From a virus, in UHGV virus genome UHGV-0043514: a stretch of DNA of 16,909 nucleotides, one strand, 5' to 3'. A program made the translations under genes and the position numbers. Below the pieces are notes generated by a model, which was not told the origin of the DNA, did no database searches, and saw only the letters and a list, made by a program, of their open reading frames with translations. Below, in pieces: positions 3,563 through 14,043 of this stretch (positions are counted from its first letter, which is position 1; each line of letters opens with the position of its first letter).

Positions 3563-4448
3563 TGGCAACCTCCAGTTTCGCTTTGCATTCTGCGTAAATG
3601 GCTTGTACGTTCTGCTGCAATTTCATTCCAGATGTCAGGCGATATGCTTCTGCAAAATATCGCTTCAAATCATCCATGTTTTCAGCATGAGCCATTTCAT
3701 CACAAAGAAGTTGTGCTTTTTCCATTATTTCCTGCTGGCGTTTCCGTTCATCTTCGCGGATATCTTCCTCTGATTTGTGCGGCATAACTGGTTCCTGATG
3801 CATACCTTCATCTTCGTTAAGCAGGTGAATGGCATTATCCAGTCGCTGGGCTTTAGGCCAGTATTTGCTGGCGCGTTTAACTATTGTTTTACGTGCCATC
3901 TCTTCCCAGAATGTTTTCCACGGTCCATTCTTTGCCTTGCTCGTTGCTTCCACAGCTTTAATTTCTGCCAGACTCATTTCTTCAGTCAGGTAGTCACCAT
4001 CTGCTGTTTTAACCGTGCAATAACCTCCAACAATAGAGCCTCGCTCACCAAATGCGTTGTATTTGTGGGTTGGTGCTGAATCAAGGCCATTTGATTCATA
4101 GGTGTCGTTTGAGTACACCAGTTTGCATTGCCCCCACTTAATTGATCCTGTCGATTGCGCAAGATGAAGTAATCCCATGTAACTGATATCAAGGCACACC
4201 ATGCCGTCGCGAGGAACCAGATAAGCCAGTTTGCTGGCCGGGTTTAAGGTGATGCCGATCGCCGCAACATTGATGATGGCGTTCTGTGCGCTGGTTGGAT
4301 TTGCCAGTGCTGTTTTAGCCAGGTAATCGTTTTTCTGGAAATACTGAATTGCAAACTGGCTTTCCTTAGCCCATGTCACCGTCTGTTCAGTCAATGCTCC
4401 GCAGAATAACTGCTCTTGCTGTTTAACGAATTCAACGATATTGCTCAT
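3546..4448 (-). CDS. recT: RecT-family single-strand annealing recombinase (300 aa)
   Basis: Size and sequence character of RecT/Red-beta family proteins (VAAIGITLNPASKLAYLVPRDGMVCLDISYMGL...KTIVKRASKYWP); occupies the bet position of the pL operon. Confidence 0.8.
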   Translation of the reverse strand: MSNIVEFVKQQEQLFCGALTEQTVTWAKESQFAIQYFQKNDYLAKTALANPTSAQNAIINVAAIGITLNPASKLAYLVPRDGMVCLDISYMGLLHLAQSTGSIKWGQCKLVYSNDTYESNGLDSAPTHKYNAFGERGSIVGGYCTVKTADGDYLTEEMSLAEIKAVEATSKAKNGPWKTFWEEMARKTIVKRASKYWPKAQRLDNAIHLLNEDEGMHQEPVMPHKSEEDIREDERKRQQEIMEKAQLLCDEMAHAENMDDLKRYFAEAYRLTSGMKLQQNVQAIYAECKAKLEVASEQTV

Positions 4449-4841: not shown

Positions 4842-4990
4842 TTCCTGCGATACCACGGAAGATTGATAGCTGATTTCATCGCTTTATTTGCTTCAAGCCA
4901 CATTTTTGAATCACCAATAAATCTGGCTATTACTGCTTTGTTTTGTGCAGCACGAAGCATCTGGTGATTAATGGCTATTTCATTGCGCAT
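4838..4990 (-). CDS. kil: Kil-like small protein (50 aa), possible host cell-division inhibitor
   Basis: MRNEIAINHQMLRAAQNKAVIARFIGDSKMWLEANKAMKSAINLPWYRRK; the FIGD-x-KM segment and the size and position (between cIII and the recombination genes, overlapping cIII) match my recollection of lambda Kil; not in the supplied ORF track. Confidence 0.45.
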   Translation of the reverse strand: MRNEIAINHQMLRAAQNKAVIARFIGDSKMWLEANKAMKSAINLPWYRRK

Positions 4991-5109
4991 AACGCCTCCA
5001 GTTGTTTCTTTGCTGCTCTGATTAATTGTTTAACTCGGCGTGATAATTCAGATTCGTGCGGGTAGAAAGCGGACATGACGCCGCTACCCGCGAGCTGAAA
5101 GTGCATCAT
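4975..5109 (-). CDS. cIII: CIII-like protein (44 aa from ATG 5109; the track's 79-aa ORF extends upstream)
   Basis: MMHFQLAGSGVMSAFYPHESELSRRVKQLIRAAKKQLEALCAMK resembles lambda CIII (MQYAIAGW...ESLLERITRKLR); AAGGAG 6 nt upstream of the ATG; overlaps the Kil-like ORF as in lambda. Confidence 0.65.
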   Translation of the reverse strand: MMHFQLAGSGVMSAFYPHESELSRRVKQLIRAAKKQLEALCAMK

Positions 5110-5175
5110 GGGTAACTCCTTATATTTGATTGCATAACGAAAACGCCTCGAGTGAAGCGTTATTGGTATGCATAT

Positions 5176-5199
5176 AAAAAGGCCCTCACATAGGAGGGC
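5176..5199 (-). terminator. Intrinsic terminator-like hairpin on the minus strand, upstream of cIII (tL-type)
   Basis: Plus strand aaaaaGGCCCTCacatagGAGGGC; on the minus strand a 6-bp GC stem followed by CUUUUUAU. Confidence 0.4.
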
Positions 5200-5259
5200 A
5201 AAGAAGATTTCCAATAATCAGAACAAGTCGGCTCCTGTTTAGTTACGAGCGACATTGCT

Positions 5260-5291
5260 CTGTGTATTCACTCGTTGGAATGAATACACAG
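5260..5291. promoter_or_regulatory. Perfect 11-bp inverted repeat CTGTGTATTCA-N10-TGAATACACAG
   Basis: Seen directly; lies 125 bp upstream of the SieB-like gene; candidate operator or RNA hairpin. Confidence 0.35.
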
Positions 5292-5350
5292 TGCAGTGTT
5301 TATTCGTATGCCTGTCTTTTAACCACATCAGGCTCGGTGGTTCTCGTGTA

Positions 5351-5400
5351 CCCCTACAGCGAGAAATCGGATAAACTCTATTCACCCCCTACAGAGAGAA
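5351..5400 (+). repeat. Two direct repeats CCCCTACAG(C/A)GAGAA, 35 bp centre to centre, immediately upstream of the SieB-like start
   Basis: 5351-5365 cccctacagcgagaa and 5386-5400 cccctacagagagaa (14 of 15 identical); the second ends 16 nt before ATG 5417. Confidence 0.4.
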
Positions 5401-5416
5401 TGATGGAGATTCACCG

Positions 5417-5956
5417 ATGAGTAACTGGTGGCAGGAACTATTACGTTTCTTCCTGCGTGGTCTTACGCTACAACAGTTAATTCATATGCTTATTATTTTA
5501 ATTGCCTTGATAATAATCACCCCTGCATCAATTAAAGAGTGGGTAGATATAAGGAACCCAGAAATACTTCCAGATCACTGGATGTATTACGCAATGCTTT
5601 TGTGTATCAGTTATGTTCTGAACAGGGTGATGGAGTTTATATTTCTGGCATCTTCAGACAGATATAAAAAATATCTCAGTAAGAGAGATGAGGCTAAAGT
5701 AATTGTGGAGACTGAGCGCCTGTTCAATTCTCTGAGTATTCAGGAAAAAGAGGTTTTAGCATTTGCTGTTATGGCAAATAACAAAATCGTACTTAAGCAC
5801 GGCGATCCGGTCGCTTTATCTCTTATGAGAAAAGGCCTTCTCCATCGCTCAGGTGTGACTTACAGCGCGTCAGGTAAAGAGAAATTTGTTATACCTGACG
5901 TCTGGTTCCATGAGTGTTATATGCGCTTTGCTGGTAAAGCTGATGAGCTAATTTAG
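5417..5956 (+). CDS. sieB: SieB-like superinfection exclusion membrane protein (179 aa)
   Basis: Two N-terminal hydrophobic segments (LIHMLIILIALIIITPASI; WMYYAMLLCISYVLNRVMEFIFLA) and a soluble C-terminal half; rightward gene convergent with N, as I recall sieB in lambda; GGAGA Shine-Dalgarno 7 nt upstream. Confidence 0.5.
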   Translation: MSNWWQELLRFFLRGLTLQQLIHMLIILIALIIITPASIKEWVDIRNPEILPDHWMYYAMLLCISYVLNRVMEFIFLASSDRYKKYLSKRDEAKVIVETERLFNSLSIQEKEVLAFAVMANNKIVLKHGDPVALSLMRKGLLHRSGVTYSASGKEKFVIPDVWFHECYMRFAGKADELI

Positions 5957-5977
5957 TTCCTCGACGGCGGGGGATCG

Positions 5978-6250
5978 TCACCTCGCTGTCAGTTGTTTTG
6001 ATTTCCGGTAGCCTGCCGCGTAAATAGCTACGTTTGGCAGGCAAATACTTCCACTGCATTCATCTGCCTTCTTGCAGCAAAGGCTTCCTAGTGATGCTGC
6101 TTTGTCTGCTCTGACGCAACCAGAGAGCTTTAGCGCAATTTTTCGCGCCAGTGCTTCATTACTGCGTCGCTCGGCAATAAGTTCTGCTCTGCGAGCTTTG
6201 TAGCGGCTTTTTGCCGTACCTTTGGATTCTTTCCAGACAATGGTTACCAT
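5978..6250 (-). CDS. N: N-family transcription antiterminator (90 aa from ATG 6250; the track's ORF starts upstream)
   Basis: Arginine-rich motif GTAKSRYKARRAELIAERR near the N-terminus; C-terminus LPNVAIYAAGYRKSKQLTAR resembles P22 gp24 / phage 21 N as recalled; AAGGAG upstream; first gene after pL and nutL. Confidence 0.8.
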   Translation of the reverse strand: MVTIVWKESKGTAKSRYKARRAELIAERRSNEALARKIALKLSGCVRADKAASLGSLCCKKADECSGSICLPNVAIYAAGYRKSKQLTAR

Positions 6251-6360
6251 GATGGTCTCCTTTAAGTGGCTTTGGCGCATGACGCGTCGAGGTGCTTATC
6301 TTCTCGATCGCTGTCTTGCAGCTGCAATTCGCGCCATCCCCAAAACCACTCAAGTTCTGG

Positions 6361-12290: not shown

Positions 12291-12320
12291 TTGACGCGAT
12301 GATTTATCCGGGGCTATATT
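12291..12320 (+). promoter_or_regulatory. Sigma70-like promoter (TTGACG, 17-bp spacer, CTATAT/TATATT) immediately after ninE
   Basis: -35 TTGACG at 12291-12296; -10 CTATAT at 12314-12319; predicted start near 12327. Confidence 0.5.
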
Positions 12321-12381
12321 CCCAGCATGCCAGCAAAATCTGGCGTCGGGATTGGCGTCCCGGATAGAGACCGCGACAGAC

Positions 12382-12404
12382 ACACGCCGCGAGCGTGTTT
12401 TTTT
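12382..12404 (+). terminator. Strong intrinsic terminator (ACACGC-CGCGA-GCGTGT followed by T7)
   Basis: 6-bp GC-rich stem, 5-nt loop, then tttttttatt; about 75 nt downstream of the predicted start of the 12291 promoter. Confidence 0.6.
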
Positions 12405-12565
12405 ATTGTCGAATGCACGCGCACATCTGAATTATGGTGGGCTGTGTGGGGGCGGAGAGATCCGCGCCGGTCGGTTTCCCGGTTACGCCAACCCTGCACA
12501 GTTCACCACCAGACGATTGGCGTCGTCGGTGGTGAGTTATTTAGAAACCACTCGAGGGCGTCATT

Positions 12566-13246
12566 ATGACAACTCAAATCTCTGTTGAAACTCTCTCCCC
12601 GATCACCCATAACCAGATTCCTGTTATTACCACCGAACTTTTGGCGCAGCTTTATGGCACAGAAATTCTGAACATCCAGGTTAACTTCACCAGAAACAAA
12701 GAGCGTTTTGTCGAAGGAAAGCACTTTTTTAAAGCATCTGGTGAGGAATTAAAAAATTTGCGACTTACTTTAAGTAAGTCACAAAACCCCATATCTCCCA
12801 AAGCCCGCTCCCTTATCCTCTGGACAGAACGCGGAGCAGCCCGTCATGCAAAAATGCTCGAAACCGATCAGGCGTGGGATGTGTTCGAAAAACTGGAAGA
12901 CTGCTATTTCAGCGAGTGCGAGAAAAATACTGGCAAACAAGAGAAGAAGCCCAACGGGCTTTCCGCAAAAGAAACAGACATCCTTGTATGGCTGTGGGAT
13001 TATGCCAACCGCTCACAGGCATTGTTCCGTGAGTTGTATCCCGCATTAAAACTGATTCAGTCTGGCTATTCCGGCATATGCCACGACTACGGCTATGAGT
13101 TCTCGTATATCATCGGGAGGGCGAGGGGCGTTTTAATTAATCACACGCGGGATATAGATATTTATGAGCCTGACGGGCCGACGAACCTTCTGGCATGGGA
13201 AAGGCTTAAGAACAAAGAGTTGCCGCCTTCACTGCATCGCTACTGA
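12566..13246 (+). CDS. ORF6N-domain (KilA-N-related) phage regulatory / antirepressor-like protein with an unassigned C-terminal half (226 aa)
   Basis: N-terminal half ([16 protein letters not shown]...[19 protein letters not shown]...[38 protein letters not shown]) fits the ORF6N pattern as I recall it; residues from about 120 to 226 match nothing I recognise; GAGGG Shine-Dalgarno 7 nt upstream. Confidence 0.6.
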
Positions 13247-13314: not shown

Positions 13315-14043
13315 ATGACAATGAATGAGCTGATAAATAACAATGCCATCAAAATGACAAGCATTGAAATCGCTGAGTTGGTGGGAAGCCAACACGGTAA
13401 TGTCAGAATATCAATAGAACGTCTGGCAAAGCGTGGGGTGATTCAACTTCCTCCAATGCAAAAAGTTGAAAATAAACAAACAATTAGCCCTAACAAATTC
13501 ACAAGCGTGTATATATTCGAAGGCGAACAAGGTAAGCGCGATAGTATCATTGTCGTCGCCCAGTTGTCGCCAGAGTTCACCGCTCGCCTTGTTGACCGCT
13601 GGCGAGAACTCGAAGGGGCAACCGCGAAAATCCCACAAACCTTCTCTGAAGCATTGCGCCTCGCGGCTGACCTTGAAGACCAGAAGGCTGAACTGGAGAA
13701 ACAGCTTGCTCTCGCAGCACCTAAAGTTGATTTTGCCGATCGCGTTGGCGAGGCCAGCGGAATTTTGATTGGAAACTTTGCAAAGGTTGTTGGAATTGGT
13801 CCAAACAAACTGTTTGCGTGGATGCGCGATCACAAAATCCTTATTGCTTCAGGTTCCCGGCGCAATGTGCCAATGCAGGAATATATGGATCGCGGCTATT
13901 TCACAGTGAAAGAAACAGCGGTCAACACAAATCACGGAATACAGATATCGTTCACTACAAAAATCACCGGACGTGGCCAACAGTGGCTGACCAGAAAGTT
14001 GCTCGATAACGGAATGCTGAAAGTAACAGGGGAGGCTGCTTAA
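13315..14043 (+). CDS. Phage antirepressor-type protein: Rha-family N-terminal domain plus KilAC C-terminal domain (242 aa; start may be ATG 13321 or 13354)
   Basis: N-terminus MTSIEIAELVGSQHGNVRISIERLAKRGVIQ (Rha-like); C-terminus DFADRVGEASGILIGNFAKVVGIGPNKLFAWMRDHKILIASGSRRNVPMQEYMDRGYFTVKE (KilAC pattern); GAGAGG Shine-Dalgarno suits ATG 13321. Confidence 0.8.
   Translation: MTMNELINNNAIKMTSIEIAELVGSQHGNVRISIERLAKRGVIQLPPMQKVENKQTISPNKFTSVYIFEGEQGKRDSIIVVAQLSPEFTARLVDRWRELEGATAKIPQTFSEALRLAADLEDQKAELEKQLALAAPKVDFADRVGEASGILIGNFAKVVGIGPNKLFAWMRDHKILIASGSRRNVPMQEYMDRGYFTVKETAVNTNHGIQISFTTKITGRGQQWLTRKLLDNGMLKVTGEAA

What the first reader, a model, noticed from the sequence alone, without database searches (positions are those of the whole stretch)
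5214..5956. Rightward SieB-like membrane protein convergent with N, with an elaborate upstream region
A 179-aa protein with two N-terminal transmembrane helices is encoded on the opposite strand to the pL operon, ending 21 bp from the N stop. It is therefore probably expressed in the lysogen from its own promoter. The architecture and position match superinfection exclusion SieB (abortive-infection type), but the assignment rests on architecture and synteny, not on a verified alignment. The 300-bp region that lambda fills with ea10/ral contains no ORF here, only structured DNA.
Basis: partly seen in the sequence, partly recalled or inferred. Interest (0 to 1): 0.5.

Follow-up and report, generated by a model that had tools for sequence, protein, structure and literature searches.

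The report
SieB exclusion gene with antisense-RNA switch
This is an ordinary, already-annotated phage "superinfection exclusion B" gene sitting where it sits in phages P22 and lambda, and the odd DNA in front of it is its known promoter plus the known antisense-RNA (sas) region, which turns out to be a reusable cassette placed in front of many unrelated prophage genes.

Summary
A 179-aa ORF lies at 5417-5956(+), not from 5214. It has one strong and one weaker N-terminal hydrophobic helix and ends 21 nt from the stop of the convergent N gene.

The protein matches Pfam SieB (E=3e-20) and PHROG 1301 (E=3.6e-94). It is 49% identical to P22 SieB. The same allele occurs at 98-99% identity in E. coli prophages annotated as SieB.

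The "elaborate upstream region" has two known parts:
- 5310-5416 is about 98% identical to the P22 segment holding the mapped sieB promoter, the RNA start and the sas antisense RNA.
- 5142-5300 is a conserved leftward hairpin and terminator block, annotated as a terminator in HK97.

Met24 aligns with the P22 Esc start. The best model is therefore the P22 sieB/esc/sas self-immunity switch.

The finding itself is already known. The cassette generalisation is the only possibly new point.

The parts
5417..5956 (+). sieB coding sequence (179 aa plus stop), a SieB-family membrane protein
   Evidence: ORF list. Pfam PF14163 E=3e-20 and PHROG 1301 E=3.6e-94. 49% identity to P22 SieB. 129 PF14163 homologues, the same allele at 98%. 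Hydropathy.
5486..5956 (+). Probable Esc-equivalent in-frame product starting at Met24 (156 aa)
   Evidence: Met24 aligns with P22 Met25, the annotated esc start in NC_002371.2. It is present in at least 90% of 42 SieB homologues. No obvious Shine-Dalgarno sequence precedes it. The assignment is inferred, not shown.
5347..5377 (+). sieB promoter by homology to the mapped P22 promoter; -10 hexamer TAAACT at 5372-5377
   Evidence: Alignment A3 to P22 29690-29720, annotated 'sieB promoter' in NC_002371.2. The segment is identical in sequence. The consensus promoter scan does not pick it up, so it is a weak promoter.
5384..5416 (+). Predicted sieB 5' UTR: RNA start equivalent to the P22 start, C/A-rich motif copy 2 (CCCCCTACAG, 5385-5394), SD GGAG at 5405-5408
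   Evidence: The P22 'sieB RNA start site' at 29727 was mapped through alignment A3. The motif duplication was analysed.
5341..5365 (-). Hairpin 1: arms TTCTCG (5341-5346) and CGAGAA (5360-5365); the loop carries C/A motif copy 1 (ACCCCTACAG, 5350-5359) on the + strand, read as CUGUAGGGGU in the antisense RNA
   Evidence: 43 distinct Watson-Crick stems occur across 106 elements. 8 of 10 pairs change on both sides, with 88% of cells paired against 47% or less for slid controls. RNAalifold predicts the hairpin only in the antisense orientation.
5310..5340 (.). Conserved 31-nt box GCCTGTCTTTTAACCACATCAGGCTCGGTGG. It may form interleaved helices GCCUG/CAGGC and CCAC/GUGG, and it lies at the 3' end of the sas-like RNA.
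   Evidence: It is unique in the window. It is nearly invariant in lambda, P22, VT1-Sakai and others. More than 100 copies occur in Enterobacterales genomes. Compensated variants exist in Rac (GCCCGG/CCGGGC), ABTNLsp11242 (GCCGGG/CCCGGC) and IMG/VR (CCGC/GCGG), but several uncompensated variants also exist.
5293..5421 (-). sas-equivalent antisense RNA region; the ends are transferred from P22 and are approximate
   Evidence: The P22 sas read cluster (AF217253 11387-11513, minus strand, 127 nt; PMC13397905 Table 2) runs from 5 nt inside sieB to 17 nt past the box. Window 5309-5398 is 97.8% identical to that P22 segment.
5963..6000 (+). Intrinsic terminator of sieB: 10-bp hairpin at 5963-5990 followed by AGTTGTTTTG. 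It overlaps the 3' end of N.
   Evidence: Terminator scan. The + strand folds at -25 kcal/mol (z=-2.8) against -13 kcal/mol (z=-0.8) for the minus strand.
5978..6280 (-). N antiterminator gene, convergent neighbour. pL transcription through it is the likely source of RNA antisense to sieB.
   Evidence: Pfam PF25694 E=3.6e-16 and PHROG 271 E=1.1e-34.
5142..5300 (-). Conserved leftward hairpin and terminator block: 13-bp hairpin at about 5261-5294, terminator hairpins at 5182-5199 and 5142-5161, each followed by a T-run, just upstream of cIII
   Evidence: Terminator scan. Fold z=-6.4. 95-98% identity in 327 phage records, and the 5182-5199 hairpin equivalent is annotated 'terminator' in HK97.

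Best explanation
The region is a complete sieB/esc/sas superinfection-exclusion module of the P22 type, inserted antisense in the pL operon of a lambdoid prophage.

In the lysogen, a weak constitutive promoter (-10 TAAACT, 5372-5377) makes a short-leader mRNA. Two products are translated from it. SieB is full length: two N-terminal membrane helices, a long helix and a C-terminal winged-helix-like domain. Esc probably starts at the conserved internal Met24.

SieB aborts lytic growth of superinfecting phages that lack the antidote. When this phage itself grows lytically, N-antiterminated pL transcription runs antisense through sieB. This produces a sas-like RNA covering the start codon, SD, leader, promoter and the conserved box (about 5421 to 5293). 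The RNA pairs with the sieB mRNA 5' end, blocks SieB initiation but not Esc initiation, and Esc then neutralises SieB.

Shown here: family membership, synteny, near-identity of the promoter and sas segment to P22, conservation of Met24, the covarying hairpin and the sieB terminator. Inferred from P22 genetics (Ranade & Poteete 1993, as summarised in PMC12197685): the exclusion phenotype, the Esc product, the translational switch and the origin of the antisense RNA.
For: - Family membership: Pfam SieB and PHROG 1301 hits; 49% identity to P22 SieB with Met24 aligned to P22 Met25, the annotated esc start.
- Prior annotation: the same allele at 98-99% identity is annotated as SieB in E. coli RefSeq genomes.
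- Upstream identity: window 5309-5398 is 97.8% identical to the P22 DNA that carries the annotated sieB promoter and RNA start. The same DNA is covered by the P22 sas small-RNA read cluster.
- RNA structure: the hairpin covaries, and its consensus structure is better in the antisense orientation.
- Source of the antisense RNA: sigma-70-like antisense promoters are not enriched in the first 110 nt of cassette cargo genes (12 of 93 elements against 30 +/- 4 in shuffles). None is found in the window, so read-through from the leftward operon is favoured.
- Context: most cassettes have leftward ORFs on both sides (56 of 97).
- Terminator: a strand-specific terminator follows sieB.
Against: - No expression or phenotype data exist for this allele.
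- The promoter is not detected by a consensus scan.
- No Shine-Dalgarno sequence precedes Met24.
- Single-sequence folding of the sas-like RNA is not better than shuffles (z=-0.9 for the window, -1.8 for P22).
- G.T and A.C counts within ungapped stems do not favour either strand (32 against 36).
- The two helices proposed inside the box have only a few compensated variants, alongside several uncompensated ones.
- I could not read the primary 1993 papers. The sas 5' end and its promoter or processing origin are therefore not verified.
Confidence: 0.8

Rival explanations
1. The conserved 31-nt box and hairpin act at the DNA level. They would be a promoter or operator module for the rightward gene, bound by RNA polymerase or a host factor, rather than a structural domain of an antisense RNA.
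For: In 'short-type' cassettes the box supplies a plausible -35 (TTAACC or TTCACC). It is followed after 16 nt by an extended -10 (TGgTATNCT), with the gene's ATG 35-43 nt further on. The box is conserved mainly in sequence and shows little covariation. The two C/A motif copies flank the mapped -10 roughly three helical turns apart, as repressor sites might.
Against: In long-type cassettes, including the window, lambda and P22, the first -10 is degenerate (TTCTCG) and the mapped start is about 45 nt downstream of the box. The box is nevertheless equally conserved. Promoter spacers are not normally invariant across genera. The hairpin stems covary as Watson-Crick or G.U pairs, and their 5' arm (on the + strand) lies upstream of the mRNA start, so the hairpin can only exist in the antisense transcript. 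Compensated variants of the GCCNG/CNGGC helix exist in Rac and ABTNLsp11242. P22 small-RNA reads cover exactly this segment on the minus strand.
Confidence: 0.25
2. The ORF is a SieB-family homologue that does not perform superinfection exclusion. It could be a decaying moron, or a membrane-tethered winged-helix protein with another role.
For: Only P22 and lambda SieB have genetic evidence, and this allele is 49% and 20% identical to them. The phage collection holds no record above 80% DNA identity for this coding sequence. The SieB mechanism is unknown.
Against: The ORF is intact and full length against the family profile. The allele recurs at 98-99% identity in many E. coli prophages (P0001 cluster of 245 members). 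The promoter, sas segment, Met24 and terminator are all retained. The AF2 C-terminal domain is confidently folded (pLDDT 87-93).
Confidence: 0.1
3. The upstream region encodes a small protein: the 48-aa minus-strand ORF at 5239-5385 or the 52-aa plus-strand ORF at 5262-5420.
For: Both ORFs exist mechanically.
Against: The plus-strand ORF has no Pfam or PHROG match. The conserved box has a 1-nt indel (GCCTGTC against GCCTGC) among otherwise near-identical homologues. Flanks diverge completely between phages while the box stays invariant, which does not fit a conserved reading frame.
Confidence: 0.03

Closest known systems
Salmonella phage P22 sieB / esc / sas (Ranade & Poteete 1993; annotation NC_002371.2)
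   Same: - Same Pfam and PHROG family.
- Same position and orientation, convergent with the N homologue (gene 24).
- Identical promoter -10 and RNA-start context.
- About 98% identical 90-nt upstream core that is covered by sas RNA.
- Conserved internal Met (the Esc start).
   Different: - Only 49% protein identity; 179 aa against 192 aa.
- The C-terminal part of the coding sequence has no DNA match in the phage collection.
- P22 has ral, orf78, orf87 and gene 17 between the cassette and c3. The window instead goes straight into a terminator block and cIII.
- No experiments exist for this allele.
Phage lambda sieB (git) and E. coli K-12 Rac prophage sieB (b1353)
   Same: Both belong to the same Pfam family (lambda SieB tested; Rac sieB by its RefSeq annotation only). 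Both genes run rightward between N (or its equivalent) and ral or kil. Both have the same upstream cassette: lambda's core is 95% identical, and Rac has the same hairpin and motifs.
   Different: Lambda SieB is only 20% identical to the window protein. In Rac the box has diverged, with compensated helix changes (GCCCGG/CCGGGC). Rac also has an annotated sRNA, KilS, further left, which has no counterpart in the window sequence.
Other cis-antisense controls in temperate phages (P22 sar/ant, lambda OOP/cII, BTP1 STnc6030)
   Same: A short antisense RNA controls a prophage or early gene. A structured hairpin loop is complementary to the single-stranded target.
   Different: In P22, sas does not simply silence the gene. 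It switches initiation between two in-frame starts. The window's element also belongs to a modular cassette shared by unrelated cargo genes, which has not been described for the other systems.
Membrane-associated abortive-infection systems of prophages (lambda RexAB)
   Same: Both are expressed from the prophage, act from the membrane, and abort infection by heterologous phages rather than block entry.
   Different: There is no sequence or predicted fold relationship. SieB is a single small protein with a predicted winged-helix domain. Its self-immunity comes from a truncated isoform plus antisense RNA.

Membership tests
SieB family (Pfam PF14163 / PHROG 1301) | Profile-HMM match above the curated threshold over most of the protein | tested here: met
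   PF14163 scores 72.8 bits against a cut-off of 26, E=3e-20, residues 23-154. PHROG 1301 matches at E=3.6e-94 over residues 1-179. A profile search returned 129 proteins, nearly all carrying PF14163.
SieB family (Pfam PF14163 / PHROG 1301) | N-terminal hydrophobic membrane segments | tested here: met
   Kyte-Doolittle peaks of 2.65 (residues 18-37) and 1.72 (residues 56-79). AF2 models helices 18-34 and 55-104. The second segment is borderline.
P22-type sieB/esc/sas module | Gene on the strand opposite to pL, between the N homologue and the ral/cIII block | tested here: met
   Window ORF map compared with the P22, VT1-Sakai, lambda and Rac annotations.
P22-type sieB/esc/sas module | Own promoter and RNA start homologous to the mapped P22 sieB promoter | tested here: met
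   Window 5347-5377 is identical to the P22 segment annotated as the promoter, and the RNA-start context is conserved. Promoter activity was not tested.
P22-type sieB/esc/sas module | In-frame internal start giving Esc | tested here: inconclusive
   Met24 aligns with P22 Met25 and is present in at least 90% of homologues. No SD sequence precedes it, and a conserved Met within a membrane helix is not proof of initiation.
P22-type sieB/esc/sas module | Antisense RNA (sas) overlapping the sieB translation start | tested here: inconclusive
   The sequence is 97.8% identical to the P22 sas region. The hairpin covaries and fits the antisense orientation. Transcription of this strand in the window phage is inferred from the pL operon layout and has not been observed.
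P22-type sieB/esc/sas module | Abortive exclusion of heterologous phages and self-protection by Esc | not testable with these tools
   This needs expression and phage-challenge experiments.
Any Rfam RNA family | Covariance-model match to the upstream element | tested here: not met
   There is no hit at gathering threshold in the window or in 16 related loci. No relevant hit appears at E<=10 in 5050-6050.
Winged-helix fold (SieB C-terminal domain) | Structural similarity of the predicted domain to solved winged-helix proteins | tested here: inconclusive

The most novel reading that the evidence does not exclude
The DNA in front of sieB may be one copy of an undescribed, horizontally mobile 'expression plus antisense-switch' cassette, that is, a sas-like RNA family. 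The cassette consists of a near-invariant 31-nt box, a hairpin with freely covarying stems and a conserved G/U-rich loop in the antisense RNA, and a matching C/A-rich 5' end on the mRNA. In long-type copies the C/A motif is duplicated and the two copies co-vary. The cassette sits antisense inside leftward early operons of prophages throughout Enterobacterales, from Escherichia to Xenorhabdus, Proteus and Arsenophonus. It drives at least 15 unrelated accessory-gene families, most of unknown function. The inferred effect is that each cargo gene is expressed in lysogeny and silenced or re-programmed when the early operon fires.
Probability: 0.45. Interest if true: 0.6.

Novelty: already known. 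Interest (0 to 1): 0.35.

Why it matters
As a SieB gene it matters little. The family, the position, the promoter and the antisense control have been known since 1993, and this allele is already annotated in RefSeq.

Two by-products could matter.

First, the promoter and sas segment looks like a portable cassette in front of many unrelated prophage genes of unknown function. If real, it would mark those genes as lysogeny-expressed cargo and therefore as candidate exclusion or defence genes. It would also define an RNA family that is missing from Rfam.

Second, the SieB mechanism has been unknown for 50 years. The predicted membrane-tethered winged-helix domain gives it a testable handle.

Tried and rejected
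- **Rfam.** Gathering and permissive scans of the window and of 16 related loci found nothing on the element.
- **Small ORFs in the upstream region.** No family hits, and the box carries an indel among homologues.
- **Own sigma-70 promoter for the antisense RNA inside the cargo 5' end.** Such sites are depleted rather than enriched, and none is found in the window.
- **Strand assignment from G.T against A.C counts in ungapped stems.** The counts are balanced (32 against 36), so this is uninformative.
- **Single-sequence folding significance of the sas-like RNA.** It is weak, with z of -0.9 and -1.8.
- **Covariation test of the two putative pseudoknot helices inside the box.** I ran five IMG/VR scans that required a non-canonical base at one stem position. 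There are few compensated variants (CCGC/GCGG in three sequences, plus Rac and ABTNLsp11242 for GCCNG/CNGGC) and several uncompensated ones. The pseudoknot is therefore only a possibility.
- **Resemblances recalled from memory.** I considered boxA/nut-like, Chi-like, ops-like, IHF, LexA and alternative-sigma readings of the box. All were rejected as poor matches and none was tested further.
- **AgvB-type anti-sRNA idea for the C/A-rich motif.** There is no Rfam support.
- **Primary literature.** The 1993 Ranade & Poteete papers could not be retrieved. A literature search for the box sequence found only the P22 small-RNA paper.
- **KilS sRNA of Rac.** It lies in the analogous interval but is not homologous to the window sequence.

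Full report
**1. Observation**

The window is the early region of a lambdoid prophage. Reading along it, the genes are int/xis, recombination genes, cIII, N, a CI-type repressor, cro, cII, replication genes, the nin region, Q and the lysis genes.

The finding's ORF is real. It spans 5417-5956 on the + strand, has an ATG start and encodes 179 aa. The stated start of 5214 includes about 200 nt of non-coding DNA.

Hydropathy analysis gives one strong hydrophobic helix at residues 18-37 (peak 2.65). A weaker one lies at residues 56-79 (peak 1.72).

The sieB stop is at 5954-5956 and the stop of the convergent N gene is at 5978-5980, so they are exactly 21 nt apart. N matches Pfam N_peptide at E=3.6e-16. 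cIII is the short ORF starting at ATG 5109 on the minus strand (Pfam cIII E=7.9e-30).

**2. The protein is a bona fide SieB**

- Pfam PF14163 (SieB) scores 72.8 bits against a cut-off of 26 (E=3e-20).
- PHROG 1301 ('superinfection exclusion; inhibits SieB') matches residues 1-179 at E=3.6e-94.
- The protein is 49% identical to SieB of P22 and VT1-Sakai, and 20% identical to lambda SieB.

No record in the phage collection matches the coding DNA above 80% identity. Only nt 10-207 align, at about 70%. However, the same allele is present at 98-99% identity in E. coli chromosomes and is annotated there as 'super-infection exclusion protein B'. A 90%-identity cluster for it holds 245 members. A profile search returned 129 proteins, nearly all carrying PF14163. 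The gene is therefore already known and annotated.

**3. Esc**

The P22 RefSeq record annotates esc as an in-frame product of sieB starting at Met25. Window Met24 aligns with that residue. It is invariant among the window, P22, VT1-Sakai and lambda proteins, and present in at least 90% of 42 homologues.

No Shine-Dalgarno sequence precedes it. The Esc product is therefore inferred, not shown.

PHROG 37662 (108 aa) matches residues 72-179. It probably reflects truncated gene calls that start at Met72.

**4. The upstream region has two modules**

*Module A, 5310-5416.* The coding sequence is divergent, yet 5200-5420 is about 95% identical in roughly 400 phage records. An 85-90-nt core is nearly invariant among the window, P22, VT1-Sakai and lambda.

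In P22 this core carries the annotated sieB promoter (29690-29720) and the sieB RNA start (29727). Transferred to the window, these give:
- a -10 hexamer TAAACT at 5372-5377;
- an RNA start near 5384;
- a 33-nt leader with SD GGAG at 5405-5408.

The consensus promoter scan does not detect this site, which fits a weak promoter.

The same P22 DNA, on the opposite strand, is covered by the sas small-RNA read cluster. That cluster spans AF217253 11387-11513, is 127 nt long, and runs from 5 nt inside sieB to 17 nt past the conserved box (PMC13397905). A review lists sas as a 105-nt cis-antisense RNA that switches translation between the two sieB products (PMC12197685). By my own arithmetic, 105 nt from the same 5' end would finish at the end of the box.

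*Module B, 5142-5300.* On the minus strand this segment folds into a 13-bp hairpin, a second helix and two terminator-like hairpins followed by T-runs (z=-6.4). It is 95-98% identical in 327 phage records. The equivalent of the 5182-5199 hairpin is annotated as a putative terminator upstream of cIII in HK97. It belongs to the pL operon, not to sieB.

*sieB terminator.* sieB has its own strand-specific terminator at 5963-5990, followed by a T-run. The + strand folds at -25 kcal/mol (z=-2.8) and the minus strand at -13 kcal/mol.

**5. Mechanism**

The best-supported model is the P22 one.

- In the lysogen, the sieB promoter gives an mRNA translated into SieB and Esc.
- During this phage's own lytic growth, pL transcription passes N and continues antisense through sieB and its leader.
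- A sas-like RNA covering the start region then blocks SieB initiation but not Esc initiation, and Esc antagonises SieB.

Two results support a read-through origin for the antisense RNA.
- Sigma-70-like antisense promoters are not enriched in the first 110 nt of cassette cargo genes. They occur in 12 of 93 elements, against 30 +/- 4 in shuffles, and none is found in the window.
- Most cassettes are flanked by leftward ORFs on both sides (56 of 97, from a crude ORF heuristic).

I could not read the 1993 primary papers. How sas is made in P22 is therefore not verified here.

**6. Structure lead**

AlphaFold2 with a 42-sequence alignment gives a mean pLDDT of 75. The C-terminal domain, about residues 100-175, reaches pLDDT 87-93.

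SieB is thus predicted to be a membrane-tethered winged-helix protein. This is a hint at nucleic-acid or protein recognition at the membrane, and nothing more.

**7. Beyond the finding: a reusable cassette**

*Distribution.* A pattern from the 5' part of the core (CTTTTNNCCACNNCAGGCNNGGTGG) hit at least 120 genome contigs. Nearly all are Enterobacterales: Escherichia, Salmonella, Klebsiella, Enterobacter, Citrobacter, Kluyvera, Pantoea, Serratia, Edwardsiella, Hafnia, Proteus, Providencia, Morganella, Xenorhabdus, Photorhabdus and Arsenophonus. The rest are identical lambda fragments in unrelated assemblies and a few chance matches.

*Architecture.* On the + strand, the element reads as follows:
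- the box GCCTG(T)CTTTTnnCCACnnCAGGCnnGGTGG;
- a hairpin whose stems vary freely but stay complementary, with 43 distinct stems of at least 5 bp (79% of elements reach 5 bp, against 36% when arms are cross-paired);
- a C/A-rich loop motif;
- then one of two arrangements.

In the 'short type', the SD and ATG follow directly. Here the sequence right after GGTGG reads as an extended -10, TGgTATNCT. In the 'long type', which includes the window, lambda, P22 and Rac, there is a spacer holding the mapped -10 and a second copy of the C/A motif at the mRNA 5' end.

*Motif co-variation.* The two motif copies co-vary between lineages: CCCCTACAG, CCCCAACAAC, TTCCACAGTCAA, CCCCAGCAA and CCCCCACAA. The mean shared substring is 8.7 nt within elements, against 5.8 nt across elements.

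*Cargo.* The genes downstream are unrelated. They include SieB, phrog_1244 (as in HK629 and HK620), GhoS-like and YdiH-like proteins, small zinc-ribbon proteins and others. At least 15 PHROG families are represented, mostly of unknown function.

**8. Which strand is structured?**

The 5' arm of the hairpin (on the + strand) overlaps the -10 and lies upstream of the mRNA start. The hairpin can therefore exist only in the leftward transcript.

- RNAalifold on 45 long-type elements gives -9.26 kcal/mol in the antisense orientation (12 pairs, 6 with compensatory changes). The sense orientation gives -3.79 kcal/mol (4 pairs).
- For a named structure on the long-type alignment, 8 of 10 hairpin pairs change on both sides. 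88% of cells are paired, against 47% or less for slid controls. The covariation score is 0.225 against 0.124 (0 of 500 shuffles reach it). About 55 G.U cells would be mismatches on the sense strand.
- Short-type elements behave the same way: 5 of 6 pairs change on both sides, and the score is 0.170 against 0.083.

Against this, an ungapped-stem count gave balanced G.T and A.C numbers. Single-sequence fold z-scores are also weak.

*The box.* It could form two interleaved helices, GCCUG/CAGGC and CCAC/GUGG. In the antisense sense this gives short loops and an A-rich third loop. Support from covariation is thin.
- Compensated variants occur in Rac (GCCCGG/CCGGGC), in phage ABTNLsp11242 (GCCGGG/CCCGGC) and in three IMG/VR sequences (CCGC/GCGG).
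- Several uncompensated variants also occur.
- The stems were fixed by my own search pattern in most of the data.

The box may equally be a sequence-specific DNA or RNA recognition site.

*Prior description.* No Rfam family matches the element in the window or in 16 related loci. The only paper found that contains the box sequence is the P22 small-RNA study.

**9. Verdict**

The finding is a known, annotated gene in its canonical place, so it scores low on novelty.

What lifts it slightly is the cassette generalisation and the winged-helix prediction. Both are computational and need the experiments listed under next steps.

Noticed in passing
window 12314-12513 (+): Rfam gathering-level hits to c4-a1b1 targets (12314-12366), isrK Hfq-binding RNA (12327-12403) and C4 antisense RNA (12430-12513). 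They lie just upstream of a 226-aa ORF (12566-13246) and a 242-aa ORF (13315-14043). This looks like a P1/P7- or Gifsy-type C4/IsrK antisense-controlled antirepressor module in the nin/late-regulatory region.
   Followed up: no
L010 (HK629) 1311-1805; L007 1303-1872; L006 1304-1819; L009 1303-1797: In several lambdoid phages, including HK629, the slot that sieB occupies in the window holds an unrelated rightward gene behind the same promoter and antisense cassette. The gene belongs to phrog_1244 (about 165-190 aa, coiled coil plus CxxC zinc ribbon, unknown function). It is a candidate alternative exclusion gene.
   Followed up: partly
L037, L040, L041, L044, L055, L056, L058, L064, L073, L079, L083, L089 and others: Identical fragments of the phage lambda sieB upstream region occur on short contigs of unrelated genome assemblies, including Nocardioides, Lacrimispora, Shewanella, Chromatium, Vibrio, Paenibacillus, Enterococcus, Pseudomonas, Neobacillus and Leeuwenhoekiella. 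This is almost certainly lambda DNA contamination of those assemblies.
   Followed up: no
L159 (E. coli K-12 Rac prophage) 3906-4003 (-) and 4066-4171: K-12 Rac sieB carries the same long-type cassette, with a diverged but helix-compensated box. An annotated sRNA, KilS (b4833, kilR 5' UTR), lies about 60 nt further left. KilS is not homologous to the window's 5142-5300 block.
   Followed up: partly
window 5142-5300 (-): An exceptionally stable and conserved leftward hairpin and terminator block (fold z=-6.4; 95-98% identical in 327 phage records, including HK97, HK620, 434 and Stx phages). It occurs with or without sieB next to it. It is longer and more conserved than a simple terminator needs to be.
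   Followed up: partly
window 4975-5214 (-): The mechanical ORF list shows a 79-aa TTG-start ORF. The Pfam cIII match covers only residues 37-73, and an SD (GGAGTTA) precedes the ATG at 5109. The real cIII is therefore about 44 aa. The Rfam cIII thermoregulator model hit HK629 but not the window at gathering threshold.
   Followed up: no
window 5630-5956 (+): PHROG 37662 (108 aa, unknown function) matches SieB residues 72-179 at E=1.2e-73. Some phage annotations appear to call a truncated gene from Met72, which is preceded by AGGGTG. This could be an annotation artefact or a third in-frame product.
   Followed up: no
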